From contig CAWIHG010000008.1 in NCBI GenBank assembly GCA_963835905.1, positions 258,384 to 322,383 on the forward strand: DNA of 64,000 nucleotides. The letters are read 5' to 3'. Shown piece by piece: positions 30,999 to 63,252 of the stretch. Numbering within the stretch: position 1 is the first letter of the stretch; each line of letters starts with the position of its first letter. The DNA is from an uncultured delta proteobacterium. GTDB taxonomy: Bacteria > Desulfobacterota > Binatia > Binatales > Binataceae. A program made the translations under genes and the position numbers. Under the pieces are notes generated by a model, which ran no database searches, was not told where the DNA came from, and saw nothing but the letters and a program-made list of their open reading frames with translations.

Positions 30999-31008
30999 CC
31001 GGGCGCAG

Positions 31009-47294: not shown

Positions 47295-47296
47295 TC

Positions 47297-48513: not shown

Positions 48514-49076
48514 TTTTTTCATTCCAGCGCGTGTGGAGACCGGGGTCGCTCGACTTCGCTCGAAGACTCGCTCCGCTCGGGATGACACAAGGGCGCGCCG
48601 CGCCCGCGGCGAGTCCGTCATCTAGAATCGCCGGTTCCTTTATCTTGACCGATACCTCCGTCATCCTGAGCGAAGCGAAGGATCTCGCGCGGTCCTCCGC
48701 GCGTCGCTGCGAGACTTGACGCGGCCGCAAAAGGAGTCGGCCGCGAGATCCTTCGCCGTCGCAGCCGACAGAAGGCCCTCTCGCTGCGCTCAGGGCGCCC
48801 AGGCGGCGGCTCAGGATGACCGAGAAAGAGAGCGGCGAAGGGGATTGGAGCGGCGTGAACCGGCGGCGCGGCGCCGCCTCAGAATGAGAGACGGGGGCGC
48901 GCCCCTGTTTTGTCATTCCAGCGCGTGTGGAGACCGGGGTCCCTCGACTTCGCTCGAAGGTCCTTCGCTCCGCGCAGAACGTCCACTCGGTCGCGCGGCG
49001 CGGCGCTAGCGTCGTAATTCGGTCATCCTGAGACGAGTCTGCGAGGCGAAGGATCTCGCGCGGTCCTCTGCGCGCC
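48514..49076. repeat. Cluster of REP-like palindromic elements (A units near 48514 and 48906; B units near 48660 and 49022; inverted partial copies between)
   Basis: A unit is TTTTGTCATTCCAGCGCGTGTGGAGACCGGGGTCSCTCGACTTCGCTCGAAG; B unit is GTCATCCTGAGCGAAGCGAAGGATCTCGCGCGGTCCTCCGCGCG. Both occur in two direct copies plus reverse-orientation fragments. Confidence 0.8.
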
Positions 49077-49180
49077 ACGGCGATCGAATCACGAATAGTC
49101 GCTCACCCGCCATTTCGCGCTTACGAACTCTTGCGCTAAAGTCGGCTCCAGCCGCCAATCGCGGGCCAAGGGGGACCGGG

Positions 49181-50713
49181 TTGCTAGCCAGCGTAATCTC
49201 CAGCGCTCTGGCCGGAGTCGAGGCCTACCGGATCGAGGTCGAAATCGACATCAGCCCCGGCGTGCCTGGCCTCACGATGGTCGGGTTGCCGGAGCTATCG
49301 GTGCGCGAGGCGCTGGAGCGGATTCGCTCCGCCCTGCGCAACTGCGGCTACGATTTTCCCAATCGCAAGGTGACCATCAACCTGGCGCCCGCCGACACGC
49401 GCAAGGAAGGCTCGGCGTTCGACCTGCCGCTGGCGGTCGCGCTGCTCGGCGCCAACGGCCAGATTCGCGACCGCGACCGGCTGCGCAATTTCCTGGTGCT
49501 CGGAGAGCTGGCGCTCGACGGCCGGGTCAAGGGAATCAAGGGCGCGTTGCCCTCCGCGATCCTGGCGCGCGCACAGAAGTACGGCGGAATCGTGCTGCCG
49601 ACCGAGAACGCGAGCGAGGCGGCGGTGATCGGCGAGGGCGTCTCGGTCGTCGGCGTGGGCAACCTGCGCGAGGCGATCGAGTTTTTCGATGGCGCGCGCG
49701 AGATCCCGTCCACCACCGCCAATCTCGGCGAAATGTTCAACGGCGCCAGCCGTTACGAGGTCGATTTCAGCGAGGTCAAGGGACAGGAGCAGGCCAAGCG
49801 AGCGCTCGAGGTCGCCGCCGCGGGCGGCCATAACGTGCTCATGATCGGGCCGCCCGGTTCGGGCAAGACGATGCTGGCCAAGCGGCTGCCGACGATCCTG
49901 CCCGCGATGACCTTCGAGGAGGCGATCGAAACCACCAAGGTGCACAGCGTGATGGGCCTGCTCGACGGGCGGGCGCTGATCGCGACGCGGCCGTTCCGCT
50001 CGCCGCATCATACGATCTCCGACGCGGGGCTTATCGGGGGCGGTCCGATGCCGCGGCCGGGTGAAGTCAGCCTGGCGCACAACGGAATCCTGTTCCTCGA
50101 CGAATTGCCCGAGTTCCGCAAAAACGTCCTCGAAGTGCTGCGCCAGCCGCTGGAGGACGCGCGAATCACGATCGCGCGCGTGATGGGCACGCTCACGTTT
50201 CCGGCCAGCGTGATGCTGGTGGCGGCGATGAATCCATGCCCGTGCGGATTTTTCACCGACCCGACCCATGAATGCACCTGCTCGCCGCTTGCGATCCAGC
50301 GCTACCGCTCGCGAATCTCGGGCCCGCTGCTGGACCGGATCGATATCCATATCGAAGTTCCAGCGGTCAAGTACCGCGACCTGACCGACAAGAGCCCCGG
50401 CGAGCCGTCCACCGCAATCCGCGAGCGGGTCAATCGCGCCCGCCAGGTCCAGTTGCGCCGCTTCCACGGCGTCCGCATCTACAGCAACGCCCAGATGGGC
50501 GCCCGCGAGCAGCGCGAATACTGCCGGGTCGAGGCGGCGGGCGAGCGCCTGCTGGAACTCGCGATCAACCGGCTCGGACTCTCCGCGCGCGCCTACACGC
50601 GGATTCTCAAGGTGGCGCGGACCATCGCCGACCTCGACGGCGCCGACACGATCGCGGCCCATCATGTGAGCGAGGCGGTCCAGTACCGCTCGCTGGATCG
50701 CAGCGCGATGTAG
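49181..50713 (+). CDS. YifB/ComM-family Mg-chelatase-like AAA+ ATPase
   Basis: N-terminal ChlI-like domain, Walker A (GPPGSGKT), Mg-chelatase C-terminal region. Confidence 0.9.
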
Positions 50714-50766
50714 AGCTCCGTCGGCCGGCGGACTGACGGGGAAGCCGAAATCATTCCACGAAGGGT

Positions 50767-50795
50767 ACTTGCGAGTCCTGCGCCGCAGGTATACT
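50767..50795 (+). promoter_or_regulatory. Sigma70-like promoter (TTGCGA-N15-TATACT)
   Basis: Read from sequence; followed by a 10-bp perfect hairpin (50833-50860) and a strong SD. Confidence 0.35.
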
Positions 50796-50875
50796 GATTT
50801 TTCAGATAAGTCCGGGTTATGATCGCGCGCTCGGAGGACGCTCGGGAGTTGAGCGTCCTCAAGGGGAGGTCACCG

Positions 50876-50977
50876 ATGACTAGTTCAGTCAAAATGGCGA
50901 TCTTTGTCGTGCTCGGCAGCGCCCTGACCGTCGCAGCCCTGATGATCGCGAACTACCTGAACGCGGCGGCGGGCTGA
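50876..50977 (+). CDS. Small hydrophobic peptide (33 aa), single predicted TM
   Basis: ATG preceded at 6 nt by AAGGGGAGGT; product MTSSVKMAIFVVLGSALTVAALMIANYLNAAAG. Confidence 0.4.
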   Translation: MTSSVKMAIFVVLGSALTVAALMIANYLNAAAG

Positions 50978-51098
50978 GAGTAGCGCCGGCCGTCTCGCGG
51001 CCGGCGGCGGTATCGATTTCGATCCCCCGTCTGGCGGTATCACGGACCGCCCGGGATGATTTTGCGCGCCGCGCGGACTATCCTCCGGAAGGTCGCGC

Positions 51099-51986
51099 TT
51101 GCGCCCGGCGCGATTGCGGCCCTATTCCGTGAAGCCCGAATCCGCCGACTTCCACGCTATCCATCGCGCCGCGATCCGGCGCGTGTATCGCAAGGCGGGC
51201 GCCGCGCGATGGAACCTGGACGAAGCCGCGTTCGCGGCGGCGCTCAAGGCGGCGGTTGCCGATGCGGTCGCATCCGATCCGCGCGCCGACGCCGCGATCG
51301 ATTCGATCCACGCCGAAGACCTTGCACTCGCGTGCGCGTGCGCGGCGGGAAACGCCGCGGCGTGGGACTTCTTCGTCACCCGCTACCGGCCAATCCTCTA
51401 TGCGTCGGCGCGCGCGATAACCGGCGACGAATCCCGCGCACGCGAGCTTGCCGATTCGATTTACGCCGATCTATACGGGCTGGAAGTGCGCGAGGGGCGC
51501 CGCCGCTCGCTGTTCAGCTACTTCCACGGCCGCAGCCGGCTCGCCACCTGGCTGCGCGCGGTGCTCGCGCAGCGCCATGTCGATTACGCGCGCTCGGCGC
51601 GGCGCCTCGAGCCGCTCGACAAGATTCCCGAGCCGGCCGCTCCCGCCCCGGCCGATCCGCCCGACCCCGATCGCGCGCGCCTGGTCCGCGCGCTTGCCGC
51701 CGCGCTCGCCGCGGCGCTGGGCGCGCTGGAGGCGCGCGACCGGATGCGCCTGGGTCACTACTATCGCGACGGGCTCAAGCTGCGCGAAATCGGACGGCTG
51801 ATGGGCGAGAGCGAATCCGGCGTCTCGCGCCATCTCGAGCGCACCCGCCGCGCGATCCGAGCGTCGATCGATGCCGCGCTGAGCACCGCGCACGGTCTCA
51901 GCCGGGAGCAAATCGCGATGTGTTATCATTACGGGGCCGAAGATTTGCCGCTCGATCTCGGCCGCGCGCTATCGGAGGCGTCATGA
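51099..51986 (+). CDS. ECF-type RNA polymerase sigma factor
   Basis: Sigma-70 region-2-like segment (FFVTRYRPILYASAR...LADSIYADLY) and region-4 HTH (LKLREIGRLMGESESGVSRHLERTRRAI). Confidence 0.7.
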   Translation: MRPARLRPYSVKPESADFHAIHRAAIRRVYRKAGAARWNLDEAAFAAALKAAVADAVASDPRADAAIDSIHAEDLALACACAAGNAAAWDFFVTRYRPILYASARAITGDESRARELADSIYADLYGLEVREGRRRSLFSYFHGRSRLATWLRAVLAQRHVDYARSARRLEPLDKIPEPAAPAPADPPDPDRARLVRALAAALAAALGALEARDRMRLGHYYRDGLKLREIGRLMGESESGVSRHLERTRRAIRASIDAALSTAHGLSREQIAMCYHYGAEDLPLDLGRALSEAS

Positions 51987-52061
51987 TTATCGTGCCTCAG
52001 GATCCCGCGCAGGGCGGCGCGCAAGGAACGGCCGCCCACTCGTTCGAATACCAGGAACCCT

Positions 52062-53195
52062 ATGCCCGGCGCTGATAATCGACCCGACCCGCTCGACGCG
52101 ATCCTGGCGCGCGCGATGCGCTCCGCCGACGCGCCCGTGCGTCCGGATTGCCCCGAGCCCGCGATGCTCGCGGCGTGGTTCGATAAATCGATGGGCCGCG
52201 GCGGCGCGGAGCGCGTCGAGTCGCATCTCGGCGAGTGCCCGCGATGCCAGGGAATCGTGGCGGCGATGGCGCGTGCGGAATCCGCCGCATCCGCGCCGGC
52301 GCCGCAGGCCACCGAGCGAGCGCGCTGGCGGATGCTGTTCGAGATGCGGTTTCTCGCGCCGGCGATTGCGGGAGTTTTCGCGATCGTCACGCTGGCGACC
52401 GTGTTTCATCGCCGCTTCGGCCGCTATCGCAAAGCCGAGCGGGTCGCGATGCTCCAGGCGCCTCGCGCCGCGGCGAAGGCCGCGGAAACCCGGATGCTCG
52501 CGATGAACGAGGCCGCGCCCCCGCGGCGTCGGGTTGAACTCCAGGCCGAGAGGACGTCCCCGCCGCGCGAGCGATCGCAGCAGGCCGGAGTCGGCGCACC
52601 CCGCCCAGCGCCGCGCGGTTTCGCCGCCGGTGCATCCGGTGGCGCGATGCGCGCAGGCGCGGCAGGCGCCGCAGTCGCGCCCGGCGCTCCGAAGCCAGCA
52701 GGTGCGGCAGGCGTTGCTGAAGCACCCGCCGCTTCGATGGCGGCGCCCTCGCCACTTCATCACGTTCAAGCGGGAGCACAACTCAAGCGGCAAGCCGCGG
52801 GGCTCGTGGCGGCACCTCGGGAGGCCGCGATACAAAGTCCCGTCGCCGTGGAGTCGCCTGACGGCACCGCGACCTGGCACGTCGGCAAAAACGGTTTCAT
52901 CAGTATCGTGGCCGAAGAGGGCGGCCATTTCATCGTGGGAAAGCAGGACAGCGGCGTCACGACCGATCTGCTCGCCGGCTCCGCGGTGTCAGCGAAAGTG
53001 TGCTGGGTGGTCGGACGCGACGGCACGATCCTGCGCACGACCGACGGCGGATATCATTGGATGAGCGTCGATTCGCCGACTCACGCCGATCTCGCGGGCG
53101 TCACCGCGCAGAGCGCGGATTCCGCAACGATTCGGACCACGTCTGGCCAGCAATTTTCCACCGCCGACGCCGGCAATAACTGGAAATCAGAGTAG
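52062..53195 (+). CDS. Anti-sigma factor (zf-HC2) with single TM and C-terminal beta-propeller-like extracytoplasmic domain
   Basis: HLGECPRCQ zinc-finger anti-sigma motif, TM segment (AIAGVFAIVTLATVF), C-terminal DGGYHW/BNR-like repeats. Confidence 0.6.
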   Translation: MPGADNRPDPLDAILARAMRSADAPVRPDCPEPAMLAAWFDKSMGRGGAERVESHLGECPRCQGIVAAMARAESAASAPAPQATERARWRMLFEMRFLAPAIAGVFAIVTLATVFHRRFGRYRKAERVAMLQAPRAAAKAAETRMLAMNEAAPPRRRVELQAERTSPPRERSQQAGVGAPRPAPRGFAAGASGGAMRAGAAGAAVAPGAPKPAGAAGVAEAPAASMAAPSPLHHVQAGAQLKRQAAGLVAAPREAAIQSPVAVESPDGTATWHVGKNGFISIVAEEGGHFIVGKQDSGVTTDLLAGSAVSAKVCWVVGRDGTILRTTDGGYHWMSVDSPTHADLAGVTAQSADSATIRTTSGQQFSTADAGNNWKSE

Positions 53196-53225
53196 CGCCC
53201 GCCCGCCGCGCCGCGCGCGCCGGCG

Positions 53226-53356
53226 CCTTCGCTTCGCTCCCGGCTCGCGCCGCACCTGTTTTCGTCATTCCCGCGCGCGTGTGTCGCGTAGCGTCCAGTG
53301 AAATACGCGCGCGAGAGCCTGTCCTGAGCTTGCCGAAGGAAATCCCGCCTCCGCTT
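53226..53356. repeat. REP-like element variant (inverted B core, A-like unit, B-like unit)
   Basis: ccttcgcttcgctc... ttttcgtcattcccgcgcgcgtgtg ... gtcctgagcttgccgaaggaaatcccgcctccgc. Confidence 0.6.
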
Positions 53357-53444
53357 CTAATTTGTTCACTGAAATCTCCGCCAGCCACTTGGCGCTGCAA
53401 GAAATTCCGGGCTCGTCGTTCAGAGAGTCGAGGGAGACGACTCG

Positions 53445-54401
53445 ATGGACGCACAAACCTCGCCAGCCCCTGTTGCCGCCGCCGCTGCCGCCGCTCCGTG
53501 GCGATTTCCCGCGCTCGGGGCGTGGCTCCCCGCCGATCCGCGCGTCTTCCAAATCGCAACTCTCGGCGTGCTGCTGGCGGCGGGGGTATGGTTCCGCGAT
53601 TTCAGCCTGCGCCCGGCGCAGATTGCGCTGACCTTTGCCGCGGCGATAGCGGCACAGCGAATCGCGTGGGTATTCGCACCGCCGCAGTCGCGCTCGATGC
53701 GCAGCGCGGTGATTACGGCGCTCAGCCTGACGCTGCTGCTGCGCGCCGACAACCTGATCGCGCATCCGGCCGCGGCGGCGCTCGCTATTTTCTCCAAATC
53801 GGTTTTCAAAATCCGCGGCAAGCATCTGTTCAACCCCGCCGCGTTCGGGATCGTCGCCGCGCTGCTCGCGATTCCGGGAACCTGGGTGTCGCCGGGGCAA
53901 TGGGGACAGGACCTTGCGCTCGGCGGATGGCTGGTGGTGCTGGGCACCGCGGTGACGGCGCGCGCGCGTATCGGCGATATCAGTTGGGCGTTCCTCGGCT
54001 TCTATCTTGGCGGCGCGGCGCTTCGCGTCGAGGCTCTAGGCTATCAGTGGCCGGTCCTTACGCATGAGCTGACCAGCGGCGCTCTGCTGCTGTTCGCATT
54101 CTTCATGATCTCCGATCCGCGCACCGCGCCAGATTCGGCGCGCGGACGCGTCGCGCATGCGGCCGTGGTCGCGGCGATGGCGCTCGGGTGGCAATTCGGA
54201 CTTTACGCCAACAACGGACTCATCTGGGCGCTGGTGCTGTGCGCGCCCGCAATCCCGCTTTGGGACGCGCGCTTTCCGGCGCCGAGATTTCAATGGCAAT
54301 CGCAAGGAGGTCGTCATGAATCTTCCGCTAAAAGCCCGATTCCGGATCGCAGCCGCGGCGCTTGGGATCCTCGCCGTCGCGGCGCTCACGACGCCGCGTG
54401 A
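53445..54401 (+). CDS. RnfD/NqrB-family-like polytopic membrane protein
   Basis: Multi-TM; LLLFAFFMISDPRTAP resembles the FFMATDPVT FMN-site motif and KHLFNPAAFG the NqrB/RnfD signature. The 3' end overlaps the next gene by 86 nt. Confidence 0.55.
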   Translation: MDAQTSPAPVAAAAAAAPWRFPALGAWLPADPRVFQIATLGVLLAAGVWFRDFSLRPAQIALTFAAAIAAQRIAWVFAPPQSRSMRSAVITALSLTLLLRADNLIAHPAAAALAIFSKSVFKIRGKHLFNPAAFGIVAALLAIPGTWVSPGQWGQDLALGGWLVVLGTAVTARARIGDISWAFLGFYLGGAALRVEALGYQWPVLTHELTSGALLLFAFFMISDPRTAPDSARGRVAHAAVVAAMALGWQFGLYANNGLIWALVLCAPAIPLWDARFPAPRFQWQSQGGRHESSAKSPIPDRSRGAWDPRRRGAHDAA

Positions 54402-55707
54402 CGCGCGCGCGTTCTGCGGCTTCTTTGTCGGCAAAGCCGGCGCGAAGCTGTACAACCATGCCTCGCAGGTCGTGATGGTCCGGCACGACGACAAGACCGT
54501 CATCAGCCTAATGAACGATTACCAGGGCCCGCTTAACGAGTTCGCGCTGGTGGTGCCGGTGCCCGAGGTCCTGCAGCGCGGGCAGATCCATATCGGCGAC
54601 CGCGCGCTGTTCGAAAAGCTCGACGCGTACAGCGCGCCGCGCCTGGTCGAATATCACGATCCCGATCCGTGCCGGATTTACGAGCCGATGCAATTGCACA
54701 TGGGCATCGCCGGAGCGCCAGCCGCGATGAATAGCGCCGCCAAGGCGGAATCGAGCAAGGCGCTGGGCGTCACCGTCGAGGCGCAATACACCGTCGGCGA
54801 ATACGACATCGTGATTTTGAGCGCAAAGCAGTCAGATGGTCTGGAAACCTGGCTCGTGCAGAACGGCTACCAGATTCCGCAGGGCGCCAGCGCGGCGCTC
54901 GCGCCGTATATCCGGCAGGGGATGAAATTCTTCGTCGCGAGGGTGAATCTCAAGGAGCACAGGCGCACCGGGCTAAGCTACCTGCGCCCGCTGCAGTTCG
55001 CCTTCACCACGCGCAAGTTCATACTTCCCATTCGGCTCGGGATGATCAACGCCGACGGTCCGCAGGATTTGATCATCTATGCGCTCACCCGCGACGGCCG
55101 CGTCGAGACGACCAACTATCGCACCGTCCGGCTGCCGAGCGGGGACGAAATTCCGAATTTCGTGCGCGACGAGTTCCCGAAATTTTACCAGGCGATGTTC
55201 AACGAGCAGGTGCGCCGCAGCGACATGCGCGCCGTTTTCACCGAGTACGTATGGAACATGGGATGGTGCGATCCGTGCGCGGGACCGCCGCTGTCGCACG
55301 ACGAATTGCGCCAGCTCGGCGTGTTCTGGCTCGACCAGGGCGCGCAGCCGGGGCCGCAGCCGCGCTTTCGCGGGGCGCCGATGCTGTTTCAATACGGCGG
55401 CGCGACGCCGGTGATCCTGACCCGGCTGCATGTGCGCTACAGCGCCGACACGTTTCCCGAAGACCTCGCCTTCCAGGAAACCCAGGATCGCGAGAACTGG
55501 CAGGCGCGCTATGTCCTGCACGTGCCGTGGGAGGGTTCGCCCGATGCGTGCCCGGCCGCGCGCTCGTACTTCGACCGGCTGGAGCAGCGGCGCTCGCGCG
55601 AGGCGCGCAATCTCGCCGAGCTTACCGGATGGGATCTCGACGCGATCATGAAGCAGGCCGGCGCGACGACGCAGCCCGCGCCATGGTGGTCGCATCTGTG
55701 GGAATGA
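54316..55707 (+). CDS. Secreted DUF2330-like protein
   Basis: Perfect SD (AAGGAGG) 6 nt before the ATG; signal peptide then CGFFVGK motif; Cys-containing C-terminal region. Confidence 0.5.
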   Translation: MNLPLKARFRIAAAALGILAVAALTTPRDARAFCGFFVGKAGAKLYNHASQVVMVRHDDKTVISLMNDYQGPLNEFALVVPVPEVLQRGQIHIGDRALFEKLDAYSAPRLVEYHDPDPCRIYEPMQLHMGIAGAPAAMNSAAKAESSKALGVTVEAQYTVGEYDIVILSAKQSDGLETWLVQNGYQIPQGASAALAPYIRQGMKFFVARVNLKEHRRTGLSYLRPLQFAFTTRKFILPIRLGMINADGPQDLIIYALTRDGRVETTNYRTVRLPSGDEIPNFVRDEFPKFYQAMFNEQVRRSDMRAVFTEYVWNMGWCDPCAGPPLSHDELRQLGVFWLDQGAQPGPQPRFRGAPMLFQYGGATPVILTRLHVRYSADTFPEDLAFQETQDRENWQARYVLHVPWEGSPDACPAARSYFDRLEQRRSREARNLAELTGWDLDAIMKQAGATTQPAPWWSHLWE

Positions 55708-55726
55708 GAACCCCGTGTCGATAAAC

Positions 55727-55752: not shown

Positions 55753-55775
55753 CCCCTCGCCAGCCGAGACAGCGG

Positions 55776-56282: not shown

Positions 56283-56534
56283 GTTTCCACCGCTGGGATG
56301 GTTCCGTATTTACGAACAGGATCGAACGCAGAGGACGTGCCAGAAATTATCCAAGCGCCGCCGTCGGGCGGTTATGGCATCCTGCATCCGTCGGCATCAT
56401 AGCCGGGGTCAGTGGCTCAAATCGAAGCATCGCAAGGTCGCCCCCGTAACACAGCCGTAATACTGGCGGGGGCTTCATTTGCGCCTCATCCCGGTGTCGG
56501 CCGAGTCACGCGTCGGCGCGGTGGCGGGCTCGGA

Positions 56535-56563
56535 TTGACTCCTCCGGACTGCTGGCCTAATGT
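56535..56563 (+). promoter_or_regulatory. Sigma70-like promoter TTGACT-N17-TAATGT upstream of ffh
   Basis: Read from sequence; about 75 nt upstream of the ffh start. Confidence 0.4.
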
Positions 56564-56641
56564 TCGCCGTTTGCTACACTAATTGGGAATCCGGAAAGAC
56601 CAGCACTTCATCCTGCGACCCGCGCATATCGGCTCTGACCT

Positions 56642-57982
56642 ATGTTCGACACCCTCAGCGATCGACTCGACGGCGTCTTCAAGAAGCTCAAGGGGCAGGG
56701 ACGGATCAGCGAGCGCAATATCGAAGAGGCGCTCCGCGAGGTCCGGCTCGCGCTGCTCGAGGCCGACGTCAATATCCGTGTCGTCCGCGACTTTATCGAG
56801 CATGTAAAGAGCAAGGCGCTGGGACAGGAAGTGCTGCGCTCGCTCAGCCCCGAGCAGCACCTGGTCAAGTTCGTCGCCGCTGAGCTGACCCAGGTGATGG
56901 GCGGGCAGGCCCGCGAGCTCGACCTCAAGGTCAAGCCGCCGGTCAAGATCATGCTGGTGGGGCTGCAGGGCTCGGGCAAAACGACCTCGGCCGCCAAGCT
57001 CGCGCTGTGGCTCAAGAAGGATCGCAAGCGCCATCCGATTCTGGCCTCGACCGACGTCTACCGCCCCGCTGCGATGGAGCAGTTGCGCGTGCTCGGCGCG
57101 CAGGCCGGAGTGCCGGTGGTGGAGAGCCGCGAGGACGAGGACCCGGTCGTAATCGCGAGCCGCGCGATGGCGCGGGCGGACTCGGGCGGGCATGACGCGA
57201 TCATTATCGATACCGCGGGCCGCCTGCAGATCGACGAAGAGCTGATGGAAGAGCTCGAGCGCCTGCGCGCCGCGCTCAATCCGCATCATATCGTGTTCGT
57301 CGCCGACGCGATGACCGGGCAGGAGGCCGCCAACGTGGCCGCCGGCTTCCATGAGCGGCTCCAGCTCTCCGGCGTGATCCTGACCAAGCTCGACTCCGAC
57401 GCGCGCGGCGGTGCGGCGCTCTCGGTGCGCGCGGTGACAGGCGCGCCAATCCTGTTCGCCGCGATGGGCGAGAAGCTCGACGCCTTCGAGGTGTTTCATC
57501 CCGACCGGCTCGCCTCGCGGGTGCTCGGGATGGGCGACGTGCTGACCCTGATCGAGAAGGCGCAGGAGAATTACGACGCCAAGAAGGCCAAGGAACTCGA
57601 GCGCAAGTTCAAGAAGAACGAATTCACCATCACCGACTTCGCCGAGCAGATCCGGACCCTGCGCAAGATGGGCTCGCTGGGCGATTTGCTCGGGATGATC
57701 CCGGGAATGAAGAAGATGGCGGGCGCGGCCGACTCCGAGGAAGCCAAGCACGAACTGCGGCGGATCCAAGCGATCATCGACTCGATGACCGCGCAGGAGC
57801 GCGATAATCATCTGATTCTCAACGGCCGGCGCCGCGCGCGAATCGCAGGCGGCAGCGGGACCAGCGTGGCCGACGTCAACCGCTTTCTCAAGCAATTCGA
57901 GCAGACGCGCAAGATGATGAAGAAATTGACCCGGATGGGAGCCGGCCGAGCCATGATGCGCGGAATAGGCTTCGGGCGCTAG
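56642..57982 (+). CDS. ffh: Signal recognition particle protein
   Basis: N domain, SRP54 GTPase (GLQGSGKTT, DTAGR) and M domain. Confidence 0.95.
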   Translation: MFDTLSDRLDGVFKKLKGQGRISERNIEEALREVRLALLEADVNIRVVRDFIEHVKSKALGQEVLRSLSPEQHLVKFVAAELTQVMGGQARELDLKVKPPVKIMLVGLQGSGKTTSAAKLALWLKKDRKRHPILASTDVYRPAAMEQLRVLGAQAGVPVVESREDEDPVVIASRAMARADSGGHDAIIIDTAGRLQIDEELMEELERLRAALNPHHIVFVADAMTGQEAANVAAGFHERLQLSGVILTKLDSDARGGAALSVRAVTGAPILFAAMGEKLDAFEVFHPDRLASRVLGMGDVLTLIEKAQENYDAKKAKELERKFKKNEFTITDFAEQIRTLRKMGSLGDLLGMIPGMKKMAGAADSEEAKHELRRIQAIIDSMTAQERDNHLILNGRRRARIAGGSGTSVADVNRFLKQFEQTRKMMKKLTRMGAGRAMMRGIGFGR

Positions 57983-58003
57983 AATAATTTCGAGGAGACC
58001 TTA

Positions 58004-58258
58004 ATGGCACTGGTAATGAGACTGCGCCGTCACGGCAGCAAGAAAAGACCCTTCTTCCGCATCGTGGTCGCCGATTCGCGATCGCCGCGCGACGGGCGCT
58101 TTGTCGATCAGATCGGAACCTACGACCCGGCCTTCGATCCACCAAAAGTCACGATCAAGAAGGCCGAGGTCGATCGCTGGCTCAAGGCCGGCGCTAAACC
58201 CAGCGAGACGGTAAAGAAACTGATCAAGCGGGCATCTGGGGCGTCCGTCTCGGCTTAA
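58004..58258 (+). CDS. rpsP: 30S ribosomal protein S16
   Basis: MALVMRLRRHGSKKRPFFRIVVADSRSPRDGRF signature. Confidence 0.95.
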   Translation: MALVMRLRRHGSKKRPFFRIVVADSRSPRDGRFVDQIGTYDPAFDPPKVTIKKAEVDRWLKAGAKPSETVKKLIKRASGASVSA

Positions 58259-58285
58259 CATCACCCGGGGCCACGGGAGCCAACC

Positions 58286-58522
58286 ATGAAGGAACTAGTT
58301 CAGTTCCTGGCGCAGCAGCTGGTGAACAACCCCGACGCGGTGGAGGTCAAGGAAACCCAGGGCGACACCGCCTCGGTCCTCGAGCTGCGGGTGGCGAAGG
58401 AAGACCTGGGACGGGTCATCGGCAAGCAGGGCCGGACCGCGAAATCGATCCGGACCATCCTGAACGCCGTGGCGTCGCGGACCAACCGCAAGGTCGTCCT
58501 TGAGATCATCGAGGATAAGTAG
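58286..58522 (+). CDS. KH-domain RNA-binding protein (YlqC/UPF0109)
   Basis: VIGKQGRTAKSIRTI KH GXXG motif; conserved position between rpsP and rimM. Confidence 0.85.
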   Translation: MKELVQFLAQQLVNNPDAVEVKETQGDTASVLELRVAKEDLGRVIGKQGRTAKSIRTILNAVASRTNRKVVLEIIEDK

Positions 58523-58597
58523 CGCCGGCGCGGCCGGCCCGCGCGAAGGCCTCCGCGCCCGCCAGCGGCCCGAATCGGCCCGCGGCGCCCGGCGCGA

Positions 58598-59125
58598 ATG
58601 AACGACGCCGTCCGGCCCGTCGAGCTGATCCGGCTGGGCCGGATCTCCGGAGCGCACGGACTGCGCGGCGCGGTCAGGCTCCGCCTGGACAATCCCGCCT
58701 CCAACGCCCTGGCTCATCTCTCCCAAATCACGATTGAACATCGCGGCGAACGCCGCGAATACCGTATCCTGGATACCGCGCGGGCGGGCGCGGGCGGGAT
58801 TCGCGTCACGCTTGAGGGCGTCGCCGGCGTGGACGCGGCGCAGGCGCTGCGCGGGGCGGTCGCGATGGCGCCGGCCGGGGATCTGCCCGCGCTCGGACCG
58901 GGCGAATTCTATTATCGCGACTTGATCGGCTGCGAAGTCCGAACCACCGACGGCCGCTTGCTCGGCGCGGTAGCCGAAGTATTCTCGGCCGGCGCGAGCG
59001 AGGTGCTGGTGGTGCGCGACGGCAAGCGCGAAGTCCTCGTACCGGCGATCGAGGACGTGATCAAGTCGATGGATTTGACGGAGCGCCGCGTGGTGATCGA
59101 GCCGGTTCCCGGACTGCTCGATTAA
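58598..59125 (+). CDS. rimM: Ribosome maturation factor RimM
   Basis: RimM N-terminal beta-barrel (IRLGRISGAHGLRGAV) and PRC C-terminal domain. Confidence 0.85.
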   Translation: MNDAVRPVELIRLGRISGAHGLRGAVRLRLDNPASNALAHLSQITIEHRGERREYRILDTARAGAGGIRVTLEGVAGVDAAQALRGAVAMAPAGDLPALGPGEFYYRDLIGCEVRTTDGRLLGAVAEVFSAGASEVLVVRDGKREVLVPAIEDVIKSMDLTERRVVIEPVPGLLD

Positions 59126-59144
59126 GCCTCGCGCCGCCGCCCCG

Positions 59145-59720
59145 TCATCGGCACACCGCGGTCATCCGGCAATTCAGCTTGTTGCTGAAATGATCGCCGA
59201 AGTACTCCAGCCCCTTGTTCGGGCAGAACGTGAAAGCACCCGGATGGTACCATCCGCCCTCCATCGTCGCGTCGACCCCGGCCTCGCGCTTGTTGGGCGC
59301 GGAAGCAAGCCATGCCCCGTGCTCCTTGACCAGGTAGATATTAAGCGCGCTGGCCTCGGCGGGGGGCACGTCCTTGGTTTGCGGCTTGAACTCCACGGCC
59401 TGCACGACCGCGTCGTCGCTTGACGAGCGCAGCACTTTGACCTGGCCGTTATAGTCGACGGCGAGCTTGGGGCCGGTCGCAAGCGGCCGCAGCTCCTCCG
59501 CGGTGAGATGCTTGGCGTACTTGTGAACGGTGAGCGCCTTGACGGCGTCGAGGTTGTTGTCGGCGATCGCCTTGAAGAGCTTTTCGCCAGCCGCGGTGAT
59601 GGCCGCGTCCTCACTCGCACCGGCCGCGGCTTGGGCGCGCGCAATCGACGGCGCAAAGGCGAGCGCAATACCAAGCGCTGCGGACGCGGAAATCGCTACG
59701 AGCTGTCTGATTGAATTCAT
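59145..59720 (-). CDS. Secreted hypothetical protein (191 aa)
   Basis: Signal peptide (AFAPSIARAQA); antisense insertion between rimM and trmD. Confidence 0.5.
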   Translation of the reverse strand: MNSIRQLVAISASAALGIALAFAPSIARAQAAAGASEDAAITAAGEKLFKAIADNNLDAVKALTVHKYAKHLTAEELRPLATGPKLAVDYNGQVKVLRSSSDDAVVQAVEFKPQTKDVPPAEASALNIYLVKEHGAWLASAPNKREAGVDATMEGGWYHPGAFTFCPNKGLEYFGDHFSNKLNCRMTAVCR

Positions 59721-59854
59721 CCTGTTCCTCCGGCCTGAGCCTAACTAGCACTCAAAAAACGGCGGCTGCAAGAGCAGACGGCTGCGCGACGGCATCCGGG
59801 ACGCCGCGGCGGCGCGCGCTCCGTTCGCAACGTCAGGACCGGCGCCGCGCTCTT

Positions 59855-59996
59855 TTCCGTCATCCCGAGCGAAGCCGAGGGATCCCGGATCCGGGATTTC
59901 TCGACTCCGCCCGCAACGGGCTCCGCTCGAAATGACGGAGGGCCGCCCACTGCGGGCTCCGCTCGAAATGACGGAAGGCCGCCCGCAATGGGCGGA
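59855..59996. repeat. REP-like element cluster (one forward B-like core, CCGGATCCGG palindrome, two inverted 22-bp copies)
   Basis: gtcatcccgagcgaagccgagggatc, then gggctccgctcgaaatgacgga twice, which is the reverse complement of the core. Confidence 0.7.
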
Positions 59997-60072
59997 GCCT
60001 GCGCCGCGCCGGCTGGTCCGACGGTGCGCGCGCGGATAAATTAGGACCTGCGCCGGCCCGCGCGCTCCCCGG

Positions 60073-60759
60073 ATGGATTTCCACGTAATCACGCTGTTCC
60101 CCGAGATGTTCTCGTCGCCGTTCTCCTCGGGAATAATCGCGCGCGCAATCGAGCAGCAGATAATCGGCCTGAAGCTTCATCCGCTGCGCCCCTTCGGCCT
60201 GAGCAATTACCGGCAGGTCGACGACGCGCCGTACGGAGGGGGCAGCGGGATGGTGATGCGGCCGGAGCCGATCGCGGCCGCGATCGATTCGGTCACCGCC
60301 ACCAATCCCGCGCTGTGGAAGATCCTGATGACGCCGCAGGGCGAGGTCTTCGACCAGGCGCTTGCGCGCGAGCTGGCGGGCCGCGGCGGCGGGCTGCTGC
60401 TCGTGGCGGGGCGCTACGAGGGAATCGACGAGCGGGTGCGCTCGCTGGTGGACCAGGAAATCTCGATCGGCGATTACGTGCTGTCGGGCGGCGAGATACC
60501 CGCGATGGCGGTTATCGAGGCGGTCGCGCGGCTGGTGCCGGGCGTGCTCGGCAATCCCGACTCGCTTAGCGAGGAATCGTTCGCCGAGGGGACCCTGGAA
60601 TATCCGCAGTACACGCGGCCCGAGGAGTTCCGCGGGATGCGGGTGCCCGAAATCCTGCTCAGCGGCGACCATGGCAAGATCCGCGCGTGGCGGCGCGAGG
60701 AAGCCCGGCGCCGGACCGCGCGCCGGCGCCCGGACCTGGGCGTGCGGCGCAAACCGTGA
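60073..60759 (+). CDS. trmD: tRNA (guanine37-N1)-methyltransferase
   Basis: SPOUT knot motifs and TrmD-specific [16 protein letters not shown]. Confidence 0.95.
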
Positions 60760-61319
60760 GCACCGCCGATCTGTTCGTCGCCCTGCTCCACTATCCGGTC
60801 GTCGATCGCACCGGACGGATCGTGACCTCGGCGATCACCAGCCTCGACCTCCATGATATCGCACGCTCGGCGCGGACTTACGGCGTGCGCGGGTTCTTCG
60901 TCGTGCATCCGATTCCGGAGCAGCGCGGGTTCGCCGCATCCGTGATCGATCACTGGCGGTTCGATTTCGGGCGCGCGCACGACTCGCGCCGGCGCGAGGC
61001 GCTGGCGCTGGTCGAGATCGTCGCGGACCTCGACGCCGCGACCGCGGCGGCCGAGCGGATCGCGGGTGCGCGCCCGACCCTGGTCCACACCTCGGCGCGC
61101 AATCAATCGGGGCTGACCTTTGCCGAGTTGCGCGGCCGGATGGAAGTGGCGGGCGCCGCGCCGGTCATGCTCCTGCTCGGGACCGGATTCGGGTTCGCGC
61201 CGGCCATCCGGGAGCGGGCCGACCTGGCGCTGGAACCGATTGCCGGCGCGACCGATTACAACCATCTGTCGGTGCGCGCCGCCGTTGCGATCATGCTCGA
61301 CAGGCTGCGCGGGCGCTGA
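60756..61319 (+). CDS. SPOUT-superfamily RNA methyltransferase-like protein
   Basis: GTG start overlapping the trmD stop; C-terminal LLLGTGFG and [16 protein letters not shown] resemble SPOUT motifs 2 and 3. Confidence 0.45.
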
Positions 61320-61386
61320 GCGCCGCCCACGGCGCCGCTTCCCGTTGCGATGCACAAGGGGCATCATATCGGCGGAGCGCGACGCG

Positions 61387-61905
61387 ATGACGTGGAGACA
61401 TAATCCGCCGACACGGGGTTTGCTGTGCGCCGCGATCGCAGCGGCCACGATGCTCGCGGGATGCGCGACCACGGCGGTGCCCGTCGGCGGCTCCCGCGCC
61501 GGGGCCCTGCTGCCCGACCGCGCCCGCGCACTCATCCAGCATTGCCCCGAGCTTGCGTGTACCGCCGCCGAGGTGCCGGGATGCGGCTTCGGCGAGGACG
61601 TGGAAGCCGGCGGTATCACGATGCGCGCCGAGATCGAATGCGCCCGCGATGGCGCCGGGACCGCATGCGTGGAGCGGCGCAAGCCGGTGGGCGGCGAGAA
61701 TCTGACTCTGCAGAATCAGCGGCTGAACTTCCGATGCGCCGGCGATCCGCTGACCTGCGTGGTTACGGGCGGCAGCGCGATGTGGCCGGAGCCGGCGGCG
61801 ATAGCGGGCGGGGCGGCAAGCGGCCCCGAACTCTCTTGCCATGCACCGCGGCGGGCAGGACCCGCGCCGGCGCCGCACAGCATCCCCGGCCCCGACACCG
61901 CGTAA
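61387..61905 (+). CDS. Cys-rich hypothetical lipoprotein
   Basis: Lipobox (MLAGCAT); the last ~70 nt belong to the duplicated block that flanks the GIY-YIG cassette. Confidence 0.45.
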   Translation: MTWRHNPPTRGLLCAAIAAATMLAGCATTAVPVGGSRAGALLPDRARALIQHCPELACTAAEVPGCGFGEDVEAGGITMRAEIECARDGAGTACVERRKPVGGENLTLQNQRLNFRCAGDPLTCVVTGGSAMWPEPAAIAGGAASGPELSCHAPRRAGPAPAPHSIPGPDTA

Positions 61906-62061
61906 AGCGCGCGCGACGAGCGACGGCGCCAGGGTCTGGGGCGGATTGATCGCATGTGCGACACGCATCAGCGGCGTTCCTCGCGATCCCTAATGATACC
62001 CCGATTTTCCTCAACACCCGCCCGTAATGCTGAATACTTGGCCGTAATGCTGAACATCCGG

Positions 62062-62108
62062 CCATCATCCTGAACGAAGTGAAGGATCTCGCGCGGTCCT
62101 CCGCGCGC
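62062..62108 (+). repeat. REP-like element B, forward copy (left inverted repeat of the GIY-YIG cassette)
   Basis: tcatcctgaacgaagtgaaggatctcgcgcggtcctccgcgcgc; ends 9 nt before the GIY-YIG ATG. Confidence 0.8.
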
Positions 62109-62116
62109 TTCTGAAA

Positions 62117-62437
62117 ATGCGCCGCACCTATTGCGTGTACATCATGAGCAGCAAGTCCGGTGTGCTCTGCATCGGCTCGACCAGCGATCTCGAGCGACGC
62201 GTGATCGAACACAAGCAGGGATTATTCCCAGGCTTCACGAGAAAATACCGGGTGAACCCACTCGTGTACTTCGAAGAGTTCGAGCGGGCAACTCAGATGG
62301 TAGAGCGCGAGCGACGGCTGAAGGGCTGGACCAGGCAAAAGAAGCTCGAATTGATTCACAGCCAGAACCCCGAGATGGTTGATTACGCGCGGAGGACCGC
62401 GCGAGATCCTTCGCTCCGCGGACTTCGCTCAGGATGA
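62117..62437 (+). CDS. GIY-YIG nuclease family protein (small YhbQ/COG2827-like)
   Basis: YCVYIMSSKSGVLCIGSTSDLERRVIEHKQG..YFEEFE...RERRLKGWTRQKKLELI..NP matches the GIY-YIG/URI domain; the C-terminal 15 codons run into the inverted REP-like element. Confidence 0.85.
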   Translation: MRRTYCVYIMSSKSGVLCIGSTSDLERRVIEHKQGLFPGFTRKYRVNPLVYFEEFERATQMVERERRLKGWTRQKKLELIHSQNPEMVDYARRTARDPSLRGLRSG

Positions 62438-62438
62438 C
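62386..62438 (-). repeat. REP-like element B, inverted copy (right inverted repeat of the GIY-YIG cassette)
   Basis: Reverse complement is gtcatcctgagcgaagtccgcggagcgaaggatctcgcgcggtcctccgcgc; it contains the GIY-YIG stop codon. Confidence 0.8.
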
Positions 62439-62778
62439 GACTGGAGCTGGTGCGCCGTGGTTGAGCGCACGGGACATAAGCGGGGCTCGAGCGTCAGGCG
62501 CCGAGCTCTCTTGCCAGGCACGCGGCGGGCCGGACCCGCCCCGGCGCCGCACAGCATCCCCGGCCCCGACACCGCGCAAGGCGCGCGCGACGAGCGACGG
62601 CGCCAGGGTCTGGGGCGGATTGATCGCATGTGCGACACGCATCAGCGGCGTTCCTCGCGATCCCTGATGACACCCCGATTTTCCTCAACAATCGGCCGTC
62701 GCGCTGAACACGGCGCAGTCATGCTGCAGACCCGCCCGTCGTCGAGAACACCCGCCCGTCACGCTGAACGCTCTGTCC

Positions 62779-62823
62779 GTCATCCTGAGCGCAGCGAAGG
62801 ATCTCGCGCAGTCTTCCGCGCGC
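62779..62823 (+). repeat. REP-like element B, forward solo copy
   Basis: gtcatcctgagcgcagcgaaggatctcgcgcagtcttccgcgcgc. Confidence 0.8.
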
Positions 62824-62910
62824 CTGTTCGTCGGTTCACCGCTACGTGAAGCGTCCGGAGAAATACGACGACGCTCATTTGGGAGAGTATCGCCGGGCGG
62901 CACGCTAATT

Positions 62911-63150
62911 TTATCTGTCAATCTTAACCGCCCGCCGCCAGAGCCAACCCAGAAGCTCGTGCCAGTACCATCCGAATAGCCGCACCACAAACCAGCCGAA
63001 GCAGATCGCGGTGGCGATCGCGAAAATCACGGAAAGCCATCGCGTGCCGTATGCCGCTCCCGCCAGAATTCCGAAGACCCACGCCATGACGAGCGCAATA
63101 TAGGCGGACGGGCGAAGCCTGGGCCTGCCGTCTGGTTGCTGTGATGGCAT
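62911..63150 (-). CDS. Hypothetical small membrane protein (79 aa, 2 TM)
   Basis: ORF with two hydrophobic helices and a Trp-rich tail; no known domain. Confidence 0.4.
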   Translation of the reverse strand: MPSQQPDGRPRLRPSAYIALVMAWVFGILAGAAYGTRWLSVIFAIATAICFGWFVVRLFGWYWHELLGWLWRRAVKIDR

Positions 63151-63211
63151 AGCGCTGCGCCGATCAGGTTCGCCGGGAGTGGGTAAATTTTGGGGCGCGG
63201 ATTTTCATGTT

Positions 63212-63252
63212 GTCATTCTGAAGCTATACCGCTGCCCTTTCGAGGGCAGGCT
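63212..63252. repeat. REP-like element variant with tetraloop hairpin
   Basis: gtcattctgaagctataccg + CTGCCCT-TTCG-AGGGCAG. Confidence 0.5.

What the first reader, a model, noticed from the sequence alone, without database searches (positions are those of the whole stretch)
48514..63252. Genome-dispersed REP-like palindromic element family at six or more intergenic loci
The same roughly 45-bp element, and a partner roughly 50-bp A unit (TTTTGTCATTCCAGCGCGTGTGGAGACC...), occur in both orientations at several intergenic positions. Clusters lie at 48514-49076, 53226-53356 and 59855-59996. Individual copies lie at 62062-62108, 62386-62438, 62779-62823 and 63212-63252. Copies pair into long imperfect palindromes and always sit between genes, often between convergent or operon-internal genes. 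This is the REP/BIME pattern, but the sequence family is not one I can match to a described REP.
Basis: seen in the sequence. Interest (0 to 1): 0.55.

Follow-up and report, generated by a model that had tools for sequence, protein, structure and literature searches.

The report
Ssn nuclease gene and its hairpin repeats
The scattered palindromic repeats are the hairpin recognition sites of a small single-strand-DNA nuclease (Ssn, GIY-YIG family) whose gene lies among them; this gene-plus-repeat system was first described in Neisseria in 2025, so this is a new example of it in a soil bacterium.

Summary
The repeats are real. The motif GTCATYCYGAGCG occurs 10 times against 1.05 expected, and 8 of the 10 lie in intergenic DNA between 48.5 and 62.8 kb.

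The key feature is a 106-aa single-domain GIY-YIG gene at 62117-62437. It is framed by inverted 44-nt copies of the main repeat (the 'B' unit), and the right copy supplies its stop codon. About 120 close homologues show the same framing. So do 74 of 80 loci from more than 12 phyla, where repeat density is 30-fold higher within 300 nt of the gene.

This matches the published Ssn/SRM system (Chenal et al. 2025, PMC11893778). There, SsnA binds such hairpins in single-stranded DNA only and cuts a few nucleotides upstream.

- The window protein is 41% identical to Neisseria SsnA.
- The repeat keeps the GTC head, the A-T closing pairs and the 3' C.
- The repeat carries a G·A-bulged two-tier stem that the published search string misses: 0 hits in the window, and hits at 2 of 80 related loci.
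- The window copy has Cys at the catalytic YIG tyrosine.
- The 'A unit', 53.2 kb and 63.2 kb elements are not confirmed as the same family.

Verdict: a new member of a known kind, of modest interest.

The parts
62117..62437 (+). ssn gene: 106-aa single-domain GIY-YIG nuclease. The last ~17 codons and the TGA stop are encoded by the right-hand repeat. Cys18 replaces the YIG tyrosine.
   Evidence: Pfam PF01541, E = 2.6e-13. 41% identical to N. gonorrhoeae SsnA, E = 9e-21. Best PDB sequence matches are UPF0213 proteins 1ywl and 1zg2. Codon 18 is TGC.
62064..62107 (+). Left inverted repeat of the ssn unit (B unit, two hairpins). The head is mutated from GTCAT to ATCAT.
   Evidence: (D2, I4). Model R1: 33.4 bits, E = 5e-6.
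62386..62438 (-). Right inverted repeat of the ssn unit (B unit with a 9-nt loop insertion). It overlaps the ORF's 3' end and stop codon.
   Evidence: (I1, I2, I4, I5). R1: 38 bits, E = 4e-7.
62779..62822 (+). Solo B unit.
   Evidence: D2. R1: 42.9 bits, E = 2e-8.
48660..48703 (+). B unit; left arm of a gene-less doublet.
   Evidence: D2. R1: 45.1 bits, E = 7e-9. DNA fold gives two hairpins, -13.9 kcal/mol, z = -3.1.
48748..48820 (-). Degenerate inverted partner of the 48660 unit, with a GTCATCCTGAGCC head.
   Evidence: R1 borderline, E = 1.3.
49022..49074 (+). B unit with a 9-nt loop insertion.
   Evidence: D2, I1. R1: 27.8 bits, E = 1e-4.
48561..48590 (-). Head GTCATCCCGAGCG closing the first 'A unit' block; weak SRM-like element.
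   Evidence: R1: E = 0.88.
59859..59936 (.). Inverted doublet of a second subfamily: GTCATCCCGAGCGAAGCCGAGGGATC on the + strand and GTCATTTCGAGCGGAG...GAGAAATC on the - strand.
   Evidence: R1: E = 4e-5 and 0.03. Long hairpin within a -50.1 kcal/mol fold, z = -5.4.
59948..59972 (-). Truncated extra head, GTCATTTCGAGCGGAGCC.
48514..48565 (+). 'A unit' copy 1 (T(T/G)TCATTCCAGCGCGTGTGGAGACC...). Relation to the family is unproven.
   Evidence: D15. No significant fold. No R1 hit.
48908..48959 (+). 'A unit' copy 2.
   Evidence: D15, 96% identical to copy 1.
62019..62063 (+). Tandem degenerate head copies (period ~20 nt) immediately 5' of the left repeat.
62693..62778 (+). Four tandem degenerate head copies (period ~20 nt) 5' of the solo B unit at 62779.
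61835..62045 (+). Leader of the ~270-nt direct duplication. The second copy at 62510-62711 is 93% identical.
   Evidence: (D1).
53264..53343 (+). GTCATTCCCGCGCGCG... element; only a head resemblance, unconfirmed.
   Evidence: R1: E = 6.8 on a fragment.
63212..63252 (+). GTCATTCTGAAG... followed by an unrelated hairpin; unconfirmed.
   Evidence: No R1 hit.
43157..43217 (-).
   Evidence: R1: E = 9.7.

Best explanation
This is an Ssn/SRM system. It consists of a small single-domain GIY-YIG nuclease gene (ssn) framed by inverted copies of its own hairpin-forming recognition motif. Further copies of the motif (solo units, gene-less inverted doublets and degenerate mosaics) lie scattered in nearby intergenic DNA.

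Mechanism, taken by homology from N. meningitidis SsnA, where it was shown experimentally:
- When the DNA is single-stranded, the motif folds into a hairpin.
- Ssn binds the hairpin in a strand-specific way. The C just 3' of the palindrome matters for binding, and the GTC just 5' of it matters for cleavage.
- Ssn cuts the single strand a few nucleotides upstream. Double-stranded DNA and RNA are not substrates.

Shown here:
- The homology of the protein.
- The repeat-ssn-repeat architecture and its conservation across phyla.
- Compensatory change that preserves the hairpin.

Inferred:
- That this protein cuts these B units.
- What the system does in this organism. The options are restriction of incoming or exposed single-stranded DNA, or self-propagation of an insertion-sequence-like unit whose internally deleted copies become the gene-less doublets.

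The window copy carries Cys in place of the catalytic YIG tyrosine, so it may bind without cutting.
For: 1. ORF 62117-62437 is a GIY-YIG domain protein. It is 41% identical to Neisseria SsnA (E = 9e-21) and aligns Y8 and E65 with the Neisseria catalytic residues Y6 and E64.
2. It is framed by inverted B units at 62064-62107(+) and 62386-62438(-).
3. Nearly all of 120 close homologues end in the repeat-encoded tail ...YARRTARDPSLR..SG. Many have mis-called N-terminal extensions (MLRHPERSEGSRAVLRALRA) that are the upstream repeat read in frame. Locus L001 shows 44-nt inverted repeats with a single mismatch.
4. In 80 genome loci from more than 12 phyla:
   - 74 have a GTCAT[CTG]YYGA head within 300 nt of the gene, and 54 have one on both sides;
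   - head density is 3.36 per kb near the gene against 0.11 per kb farther away;
   - the best flanking inverted repeat exceeds the null 95th percentile in 56 of 79 loci.
5. Plasmid or chromid examples in Planktothrix, Spirosoma, Azospirillum, Sinorhizobium, Neisseria, Aeromonas and Novosphingobium show the same framing with lineage-specific hairpins.
6. The stem covaries. At stem position 3 the pairs are T-A 90, C-G 59 and G-C 33, giving 93% paired against 52% when partners are shuffled. On alignment A4 the covariation score is 0.306 against 0.089, with 0 of 500 shuffles as high.
7. A model built from other genomes' ssn-flanking repeats retrieves the window copies.
8. The published biochemistry and the published ssn-repeat association are in PMC11893778.
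Against: - The published degenerate SRM search string has 0 hits in the window (0.6 expected by chance). It hits only 2 of the 80 related loci. The match to 'SRM' therefore rests on architecture and association, not on the operational motif.
- Residue 18 is Cys, where 239 of 254 relatives have the YIG Tyr. The equivalent Y17A mutant of Neisseria SsnA does not cut (PMC11893778).
- No biochemical or genetic data exist for this lineage.
- The source genome as a whole could not be examined. Copy number and the presence of other ssn paralogues are therefore unknown.
- The A unit and the 53.2 kb and 63.2 kb elements are not explained by this model.
Confidence: 0.88

Rival explanations
1. The repeat-ssn-repeat unit is primarily a selfish, insertion-sequence-like mobile element. 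The GIY-YIG nuclease would act on its own hairpin ends, analogous to IS200/IS605 or RAYT elements. The gene-less doublets would be MITE-like internal-deletion derivatives spread in trans, rather than sites serving a host function such as ssDNA restriction.
For: - Inverted-repeat framing is seen across phyla.
- Units are inserted inside conserved operons: sufB-sufC in Azospirillum, between glycoside hydrolase genes in Spirosoma, and within the rimM-trmD-rplS region here.
- In metagenome loci, 31 of 51 B-type repeat pairs have short spacers of 18-179 nt. Many of these retain the 5' and/or 3' ends of the ssn ORF, for example L139, L176, L205 and L213.
- 61 of 139 exact B cores are solo, with no ssn nearby.
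- Chenal et al. themselves note the IS-like architecture.
Against: - No target-site duplication flanks the unit here.
- No empty-site/filled-site pair was found.
- A 90-100 aa GIY-YIG domain has no known strand-transfer activity.
- There is only one ssn copy in 64 kb.
- Deletion derivatives could arise by decay without any mobility.
Confidence: 0.35
2. Classical REP/BIME elements, mobilised by a RAYT (Y1 HUH) transposase encoded elsewhere in the genome. The neighbouring GIY-YIG gene would be a coincidence.
Against: - The head is GTCAT, not GTAG.
- The gene framed by inverted copies is GIY-YIG, both in the window and in 74 of 80 loci across phyla.
- None of the ORFs next to the repeats is a Y1 transposase.
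- The association is 30-fold enriched within 300 nt of the gene.
Confidence: 0.02
3. RNA-level elements (intrinsic terminators or mRNA-stabilising hairpins) that are unrelated to the nuclease.
For: Stable hairpins lie between co-oriented genes. REP-type hairpins can stabilise transcripts in E. coli (from my own knowledge of the field).
Against: - Hairpin 2 is not followed by a T-run.
- Copies occur in both orientations, including upstream of genes.
- No Rfam family matches.
- Neisseria SsnA does not bind RNA, and its motif acts as ssDNA.
- The conserved non-palindromic GTC head and 3' C point to protein recognition.
Confidence: 0.05

Closest known systems
Ssn nucleases and their Ssn-related motifs (SRM), including the N. 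meningitidis NTS/dRS3 repeats (Chenal et al. 2025, Nat Commun 16:2388, PMC11893778)
   Same: - A single-domain GIY-YIG protein of ~95-105 aa, 41% identical to Neisseria SsnA.
- The gene is framed by inverted hairpin repeats, matching the NTS-ssnA-NTS architecture.
- The repeat has a GTC head, a palindrome that opens with A-T pairs, and a C immediately 3' of the palindrome.
- The repeats are multi-copy and almost entirely intergenic.
- Repeat sequence differs between lineages, tracking the associated gene.
   Different: - The stem is two-tiered. It has a 5-bp outer stem, a tandem G·A/A·G internal loop, and an inner mini-hairpin (GCGAAGC in the simplest form). The published search string does not detect this form: 0 hits in the window and hits at 2 of 80 related loci.
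- In this clade a second G+C hairpin (CGCGCGG-TCCT-CCGCGCG) is part of the unit.
- The right repeat encodes the protein's C-terminus and stop codon.
- The window copy has Cys at the catalytic YIG tyrosine.
- The host is a Binataceae-like soil bacterium with no known natural transformation.
REP/BIME elements with RAYT (TnpA_REP) transposases ('REPtrons', REPINs)
   Same: - A nuclease gene framed by inverted copies of a short hairpin repeat.
- A conserved short head next to a variable hairpin.
- Gene-less inverted doublets (REPIN-like).
- Action inferred to be on single-stranded DNA.
   Different: - The enzyme is a GIY-YIG nuclease, not a Y1 HUH transposase.
- The head is GTCAT, not GTAG.
- No strand-transfer chemistry is known for GIY-YIG enzymes.
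Neisseria intergenic mosaic elements (NIMEs) and Rhizobium RIME/Sm-repeats
   Same: These are mosaic intergenic arrays of inverted hairpin units. The Neisseria and Sinorhizobium loci fetched here show such repeats on both sides of an ssn homologue.
   Different: - Their stems are perfect and the sequences differ.
- The Sinorhizobium head is CTCATCC.
- That these named repeat families are the same as the repeats I saw is recalled from memory. It was not tested beyond those two loci.
Housekeeping UPF0213/YhbQ-type standalone GIY-YIG proteins (PDB 1ywl, 1zg2)
   Same: Same minimal GIY-YIG fold. They are the best sequence matches among solved structures.
   Different: Only ~34% identical. They sit in a fixed operon context (tRNA methyltransferase - GIY-YIG - rsmI in Radiobacillus) with no flanking repeats.

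Membership tests
Ssn nuclease family (cd10448, Chenal et al. 2025) | Single-domain GIY-YIG protein of roughly 90-110 aa with no accessory DNA-binding domain | tested here: met
   106 aa. The only significant Pfam hit is PF01541, covering residues 5-76 (a sub-threshold T5orf172 match overlaps the same stretch). The C-terminal ~17 residues are encoded by the repeat.
Ssn nuclease family (cd10448, Chenal et al. 2025) | Sequence homology to N. meningitidis/gonorrhoeae SsnA (the paper used E < 1e-10) | tested here: met
   BLASTP gives 41% identity over 80 aa, E = 9e-21, against the N. gonorrhoeae orthologue translated from L015. tblastn gave E = 7e-12. Assignment to CDD cd10448 itself could not be run.
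Ssn nuclease family (cd10448, Chenal et al. 2025) | Catalytic residues equivalent to Neisseria Y6, Y17 and E64 | tested here: not met
   Y8 and E65 align with Y6 and E64, but position 18 is Cys (TGC) where Neisseria has Y17. 239 of 254 relatives have Tyr there. This concerns the activity of this particular copy, not its descent. The 83%-identical P0002 has Tyr.
Ssn nuclease family (cd10448, Chenal et al. 2025) | Site-specific cleavage of ssDNA only, next to the cognate hairpin | not testable with these tools
   Requires purified protein and oligonucleotide assays.
Ssn-related motifs (SRM) | Hairpin repeats flank the ssn gene on both sides in inverted orientation | tested here: met
   Window repeats at 62064-62107(+) and 62386-62438(-). 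Locus L001. 54 of 80 loci have a head on both sides.
Ssn-related motifs (SRM) | Oriented motif: a conserved GTC(A/T) head 5' of a palindrome and a conserved C 3' of it | tested here: met
   GTC-ATCCT...AGGAT-C in all B units. GTCAT and ATC are invariant in alignment A4, although those columns were fixed by the extraction pattern.
Ssn-related motifs (SRM) | Hairpin-forming, with the structure maintained in evolution | tested here: met
   DNA fold of -13.9 kcal/mol, z = -3.1. Compensatory changes occur at unconstrained stem positions.
Ssn-related motifs (SRM) | Match to the published operational search string HGTCWYN(0-2)YYVSBRHN(0-5)WNVSBRGN(0-2)RNCYNB | tested here: not met
   0 hits in the window (0.6 expected). 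The same regex does hit the Neisseria NTS and loci L014-L016. The string was built by hand from 29 genomes and excludes the CTGAGCG...CGAAG G·A-bulged stem. I treat it as a search heuristic rather than a definition, so the repeat is filed as an SRM-type variant.
Ssn-related motifs (SRM) | Many copies per genome, enriched over shuffles, almost all intergenic | tested here: inconclusive
   Within the window the head is enriched about 10-fold, and all confirmed copies are intergenic except the one overlapping the ssn 3' end. The whole source genome was not available. At least 120 metagenome stretches carry the exact B core.
REP/RAYT (BIME, REPIN) | A GTAG-type head and an associated Y1 (HUH) transposase framed by the repeats | tested here: not met
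   The head is GTCAT. The framed gene is GIY-YIG. The neighbouring ORFs have no Y1_Tnp hit. The rest of the window's ORFs were not scanned.

The most novel reading that the evidence does not exclude
The repeat-ssn-repeat unit may be an autonomous, ssDNA-based mobile element of a kind absent from current insertion-sequence classifications, with a GIY-YIG nuclease in the transposase role.

On this reading:
- The G·A-bulged hairpin class seen here would be its dominant form across soil and aquatic phyla (Binatia, Acidobacteriota, Chloroflexota, Cyanobacteriota, Bacteroidota and others), and largely invisible to the published SRM search.
- The gene-less doublets would be its MITE-like deletion derivatives.
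- The tandem ~20-nt head duplications would be footprints of repeated cleavage and repair.
- Catalytically altered copies such as the window's Cys18 protein could be domesticated hairpin binders.
Probability: 0.25. Interest if true: 0.65.

Novelty: new member of a known kind. Interest (0 to 1): 0.3.

Why it matters
The finding ties an anonymous 'REP-like' family in an uncultured soil lineage to a defined enzyme-motif pair. It therefore gives a concrete, testable function: strand-specific cutting of single-stranded DNA at hairpins.

It also shows that the published SRM search string misses a whole structural class of these motifs. That class appears at 74 of 80 loci from more than 12 phyla, against 2 of 80 for the published string. 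Current censuses of Ssn/SRM systems are therefore probably underestimates, and the repertoire of natural ssDNA-nuclease specificities available as molecular tools is wider than reported.

The gene-less doublets that retain ssn remnants add comparative support to the idea, raised only as a hypothesis in the original paper, that these units behave like insertion sequences.

Tried and rejected
- **Rfam:** neither the gathering nor the permissive threshold gave a relevant family.
- **Literature keyword searches:** combining GIY-YIG with REP, RAYT, MITE, terminal inverted repeats, COG2827 or palindromes found nothing relevant. The Ssn paper surfaced only when I searched for the repeat sequence itself.
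- **Source contig:** look-ups of P0001 and P0002 found nothing on record, so the rest of the source genome could not be read.
- **First genome scan:** A 22-sequence alignment worked.
- **Loose architecture search:** GTC + 5-bp stem + C is not specific, giving 10 hits against 9.2 expected. I dropped it in favour of the covariance model.
- **The A unit:** it does not fold better than shuffles and has no relatives in the fetched loci.
- **Target-site duplication:** none flanks the unit.
- **Other ssn copies:** no second ssn copy or remnant is present in the window.
- **NCBIfam:** no model matches the protein.
- **Supplementary tables:** those of the Ssn paper are not held, so I could not check whether its 29 curated motifs include the G·A-bulged type.
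- **Not used:** structure prediction, as unnecessary for the verdict.

Full report
**The observation**

The region contains a real repeat family. Its best-defined member, called the B unit here, is 44 nt long: GTCATCCTGAGCGAAGCGAAGGATCTCGCGCGGTCCTCCGCGCG. It lies at these positions:
- 48660-48703(+);
- 49022-49074(+), with a 9-nt loop insertion;
- 62064-62107(+), with the head mutated to ATCAT;
- 62386-62438(-);
- 62779-62822(+).

As single-stranded DNA the unit folds into two hairpins. The first is ATCCT-GA-GCGAAGC-GA-AGGAT and the second is CGCGCGG-TCCT-CCGCGCG. The fold energy is -13.9 kcal/mol, z = -3.1.

A second subfamily forms an inverted doublet at 59859-59936, within a -50.1 kcal/mol fold (z = -5.4).

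The shared head GTCATYCYGAGCG (up to 1 mismatch) occurs 10 times against 1.05 expected, and no shuffle out of 100 reaches 10. Eight of the ten hits lie in intergenic DNA between 48.5 and 62.8 kb.

It does not fold better than shuffles and has no relatives in anything I fetched. The elements at 53226-53356 and 63212-63252 share little more than GTCAT.

**The decisive feature**

ORF 62117-62437(+) encodes a 106-aa protein whose only significant Pfam domain is GIY-YIG (PF01541, E = 2.6e-13). It sits exactly between two inverted B units:
- The left unit ends 9 nt before the ATG.
- The right unit encodes the last ~17 residues (...YARRTARDPSLRGLRSG) and provides the TGA stop within its terminal ATGAC.

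Neighbouring genes are ordinary. They include CoA-transferase III, a ComM/YifB-like Mg-chelatase ATPase, and ffh-rpsP-KH-rimM, then trmD, an RNA methyltransferase and rplS. The repeats and the nuclease gene therefore interrupt a conserved ribosomal operon region.

**Is the framing a coincidence?**

It is not.
- The 120 closest homologues (59-100% identity; several are named as Candidatus Binataceae) almost all end in the same repeat-encoded tail. Many carry spurious N-terminal extensions (MLRHPERSEGSRAVLRALRA) that are the upstream repeat read in frame.
- A peat-metagenome locus shows 44-nt inverted repeats with a single mismatch around the ORF (L001).
- A tblastn search of plasmids and chromids found homologues framed by lineage-specific hairpins in Planktothrix, Spirosoma, Azospirillum (inserted between sufB and sufC), Sinorhizobium, Neisseria, Aeromonas and Novosphingobium. 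A 34%-identical Bacillota homologue, in a fixed tRNA-methyltransferase/rsmI operon, has none.
- A scan of one genome per species returned 80 loci from more than 12 phyla:
  - The best inverted repeat flanking the ORF exceeds the 95th percentile of a same-geometry null in 56 of 79 loci.
  - 74 of 80 loci have a GTCAT[CTG]YYGA head within 300 nt of the gene, and 54 of 80 have one on both sides.
  - Head density is 3.36 per kb near the gene against 0.11 per kb elsewhere in the same loci.
  - In nine loci the downstream head ends one base after the stop codon, as in the window.

**Structure of the repeat**

Across 203 distinct elements from 70 sources, the three stem positions that my extraction pattern left free are paired in 92-93% of cases. 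At stem position 3 the pairs are T-A 90, C-G 59 and G-C 33, against 52% paired when partners are shuffled.

On a 43-sequence alignment the covariation score is 0.306 against 0.089. None of 500 shuffles is as high, and the signal collapses when partners are slid by 1-3 columns.

The consensus has these parts, in order:
- GTC;
- a 5-bp stem opening with A-T and T-A pairs;
- a tandem G·A/A·G internal loop;
- an inner mini-hairpin of variable length that also covaries (G-C 31, A-T 7);
- a C immediately 3' of the stem.

A covariance model (R1) built only from such elements in other genomes retrieves seven window copies at E < 0.05. It finds nothing significant outside the flagged regions.

**Comparison with what is known**

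Keyword searches failed, but searching the literature for the repeat sequence itself found Chenal et al. 2025 (Nat Commun 16:2388, PMC11893778). That paper reports the following:
- N. meningitidis SsnA is a 94-aa single-domain GIY-YIG protein (CDD cd10448). It binds the NTS repeat (CGTCATTCCCGCGMAVGCGGGAATCYRG, which contains dRS3) as ssDNA only, on one strand only, and cuts a few nucleotides upstream.
- The Y6A, Y17A and E64A mutants bind but do not cut.
- The C just after the palindrome is most important for binding. The three nucleotides before the palindrome are most important for cleavage.
- The system lowers transformation by NTS-containing DNA.
- Homologues across phyla are flanked by 'Ssn-related motifs' (SRM): 71% have at least one, and 42% have one on both sides.
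- The NTS-ssnA-NTS layout resembles an insertion sequence and the REP/RAYT system.

The window protein is 41% identical to the gonococcal orthologue (E = 9e-21). The B unit keeps the GTC head, the A-T closing pairs and the 3' C. I therefore identify the finding as an Ssn/SRM system.

**Where it departs from the description**

1. The published degenerate search string has no hit in the window. It hits only 2 of the 80 loci most related to this ssn, although it does hit the Neisseria, Aeromonas and Azospirillum loci. The G·A-bulged two-tier stem lies outside that heuristic.
2. The window protein has Cys18 (TGC) at the position of Neisseria Y17. 239 of 254 relatives have Tyr there. This copy may bind without cutting, may be decaying, or may carry an assembly error.
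3. In this clade a second G+C hairpin belongs to the unit, and the right repeat is translated.

**Dispersal**

I could not read the rest of the source genome. The 139 core occurrences break down as follows:

| Context | Count |
|---|---|
| Adjacent to an ssn homologue | 28 |
| Solo, with at least 450 nt of sequence on both sides | 61 |
| Too near a contig end to decide | 50 |

Of 51 B-type repeat pairs, 20 have the spacing expected for a full gene and 31 have spacers of 18-179 nt. Many of the short spacers retain the first and/or last codons of ssn. They therefore look like internal-deletion derivatives, as MITEs are of insertion sequences. This supports, but does not prove, the mobile-element reading. 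No target-site duplication or empty site was found.

**Verdict**

The REP/BIME analogy is apt in form but wrong in family. The system is a new, slightly atypical member of the recently described Ssn/SRM kind.

Function in this organism is inferred, not shown. Remaining oddities are listed under things noticed in passing: the tandem ~20-nt head duplications, the ~270-nt duplication bracketing the gene, and the Cys18 substitution.

Noticed in passing
window 62019-62063 and 62693-62778; also L011 (Planktothrix plasmid) downstream of its ssn gene: Immediately 5' of two B(+) units there are 2-4 tandem, degenerate copies of just the head, with a period of ~20 nt (CCGTAATGCTGAAC..., CCGTCGCGCTGAAC...). 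The cyanobacterial plasmid shows the same thing with a 23-nt period (CTGTCATTCTGAGTTCTCCTGTG x3). This may be a footprint of repeated cleavage and repair next to the motif. It is unexplained.
   Followed up: partly
window 61835-62107 and 62510-62822: A ~270-nt direct duplication (leader ~93% identical, plus head repeats and a B unit) brackets the ssn gene. The leader has no match in any other fetched locus and no Pfam-supported ORF.
   Followed up: partly
window 62168-62170 (codon 18 of the ssn ORF): TGC (Cys) replaces the YIG tyrosine, which is Tyr in 239 of 254 relatives. It corresponds to Neisseria SsnA Y17, whose alanine mutant binds but does not cut. A single G-to-A change would restore Tyr.
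   Followed up: yes
80 genome loci L019-L098; window: The published SRM search string detects 2 of 80 loci of this ssn clade and nothing in the window. A simple G·A-bulged head pattern detects 74 of 80. The published census of these motifs probably misses most Acidobacteriota, Chloroflexota, Cyanobacteriota, Bacteroidota and Binatia systems.
   Followed up: yes
metagenome loci, e.g. L139, L176, L205, L213, L215, L134, L179: Gene-less inverted doublets of the B unit often retain the first and/or last codons of ssn between the two repeats. They look like internal-deletion (MITE-like) derivatives of the repeat-ssn-repeat unit.
   Followed up: partly
window 42803-43808: A 1-kb intergenic region is packed with other short repeats. 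These are CACAGGCTAAAGCCGATGCCACT twice (43558-43625), a (GTGAAAA)n run (43681-43710), two G/C-tract hairpins around 43395-43440 and 43490-43535, and a weak GTCAT-type element at 43157-43217(-).
   Followed up: no
window 13815-13927: A 28-nt inverted repeat (86% complementary) surrounds a G+C hairpin between the genes ending at about 13794 and 13946. It is unrelated in sequence to the GTCAT family.
   Followed up: no
window 28492-31000 and 46089-48499: Two tandem pairs of CoA-transferase family III paralogues account for most of the long 'direct repeat' families in the mechanical repeat scan (D3, D6, D7, D9-D11).
   Followed up: no
window 59145-59720 (-) and 60687-61319 (+): The conserved rpsP-KH-rimM-trmD-rplS order is interrupted in two places. 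A reverse-strand ORF of unknown function lies between rimM and trmD. Between trmD and rplS lie a SAM-dependent RNA methyltransferase gene (PF09936, overlapping the trmD 3' end) and the ssn region.
   Followed up: no
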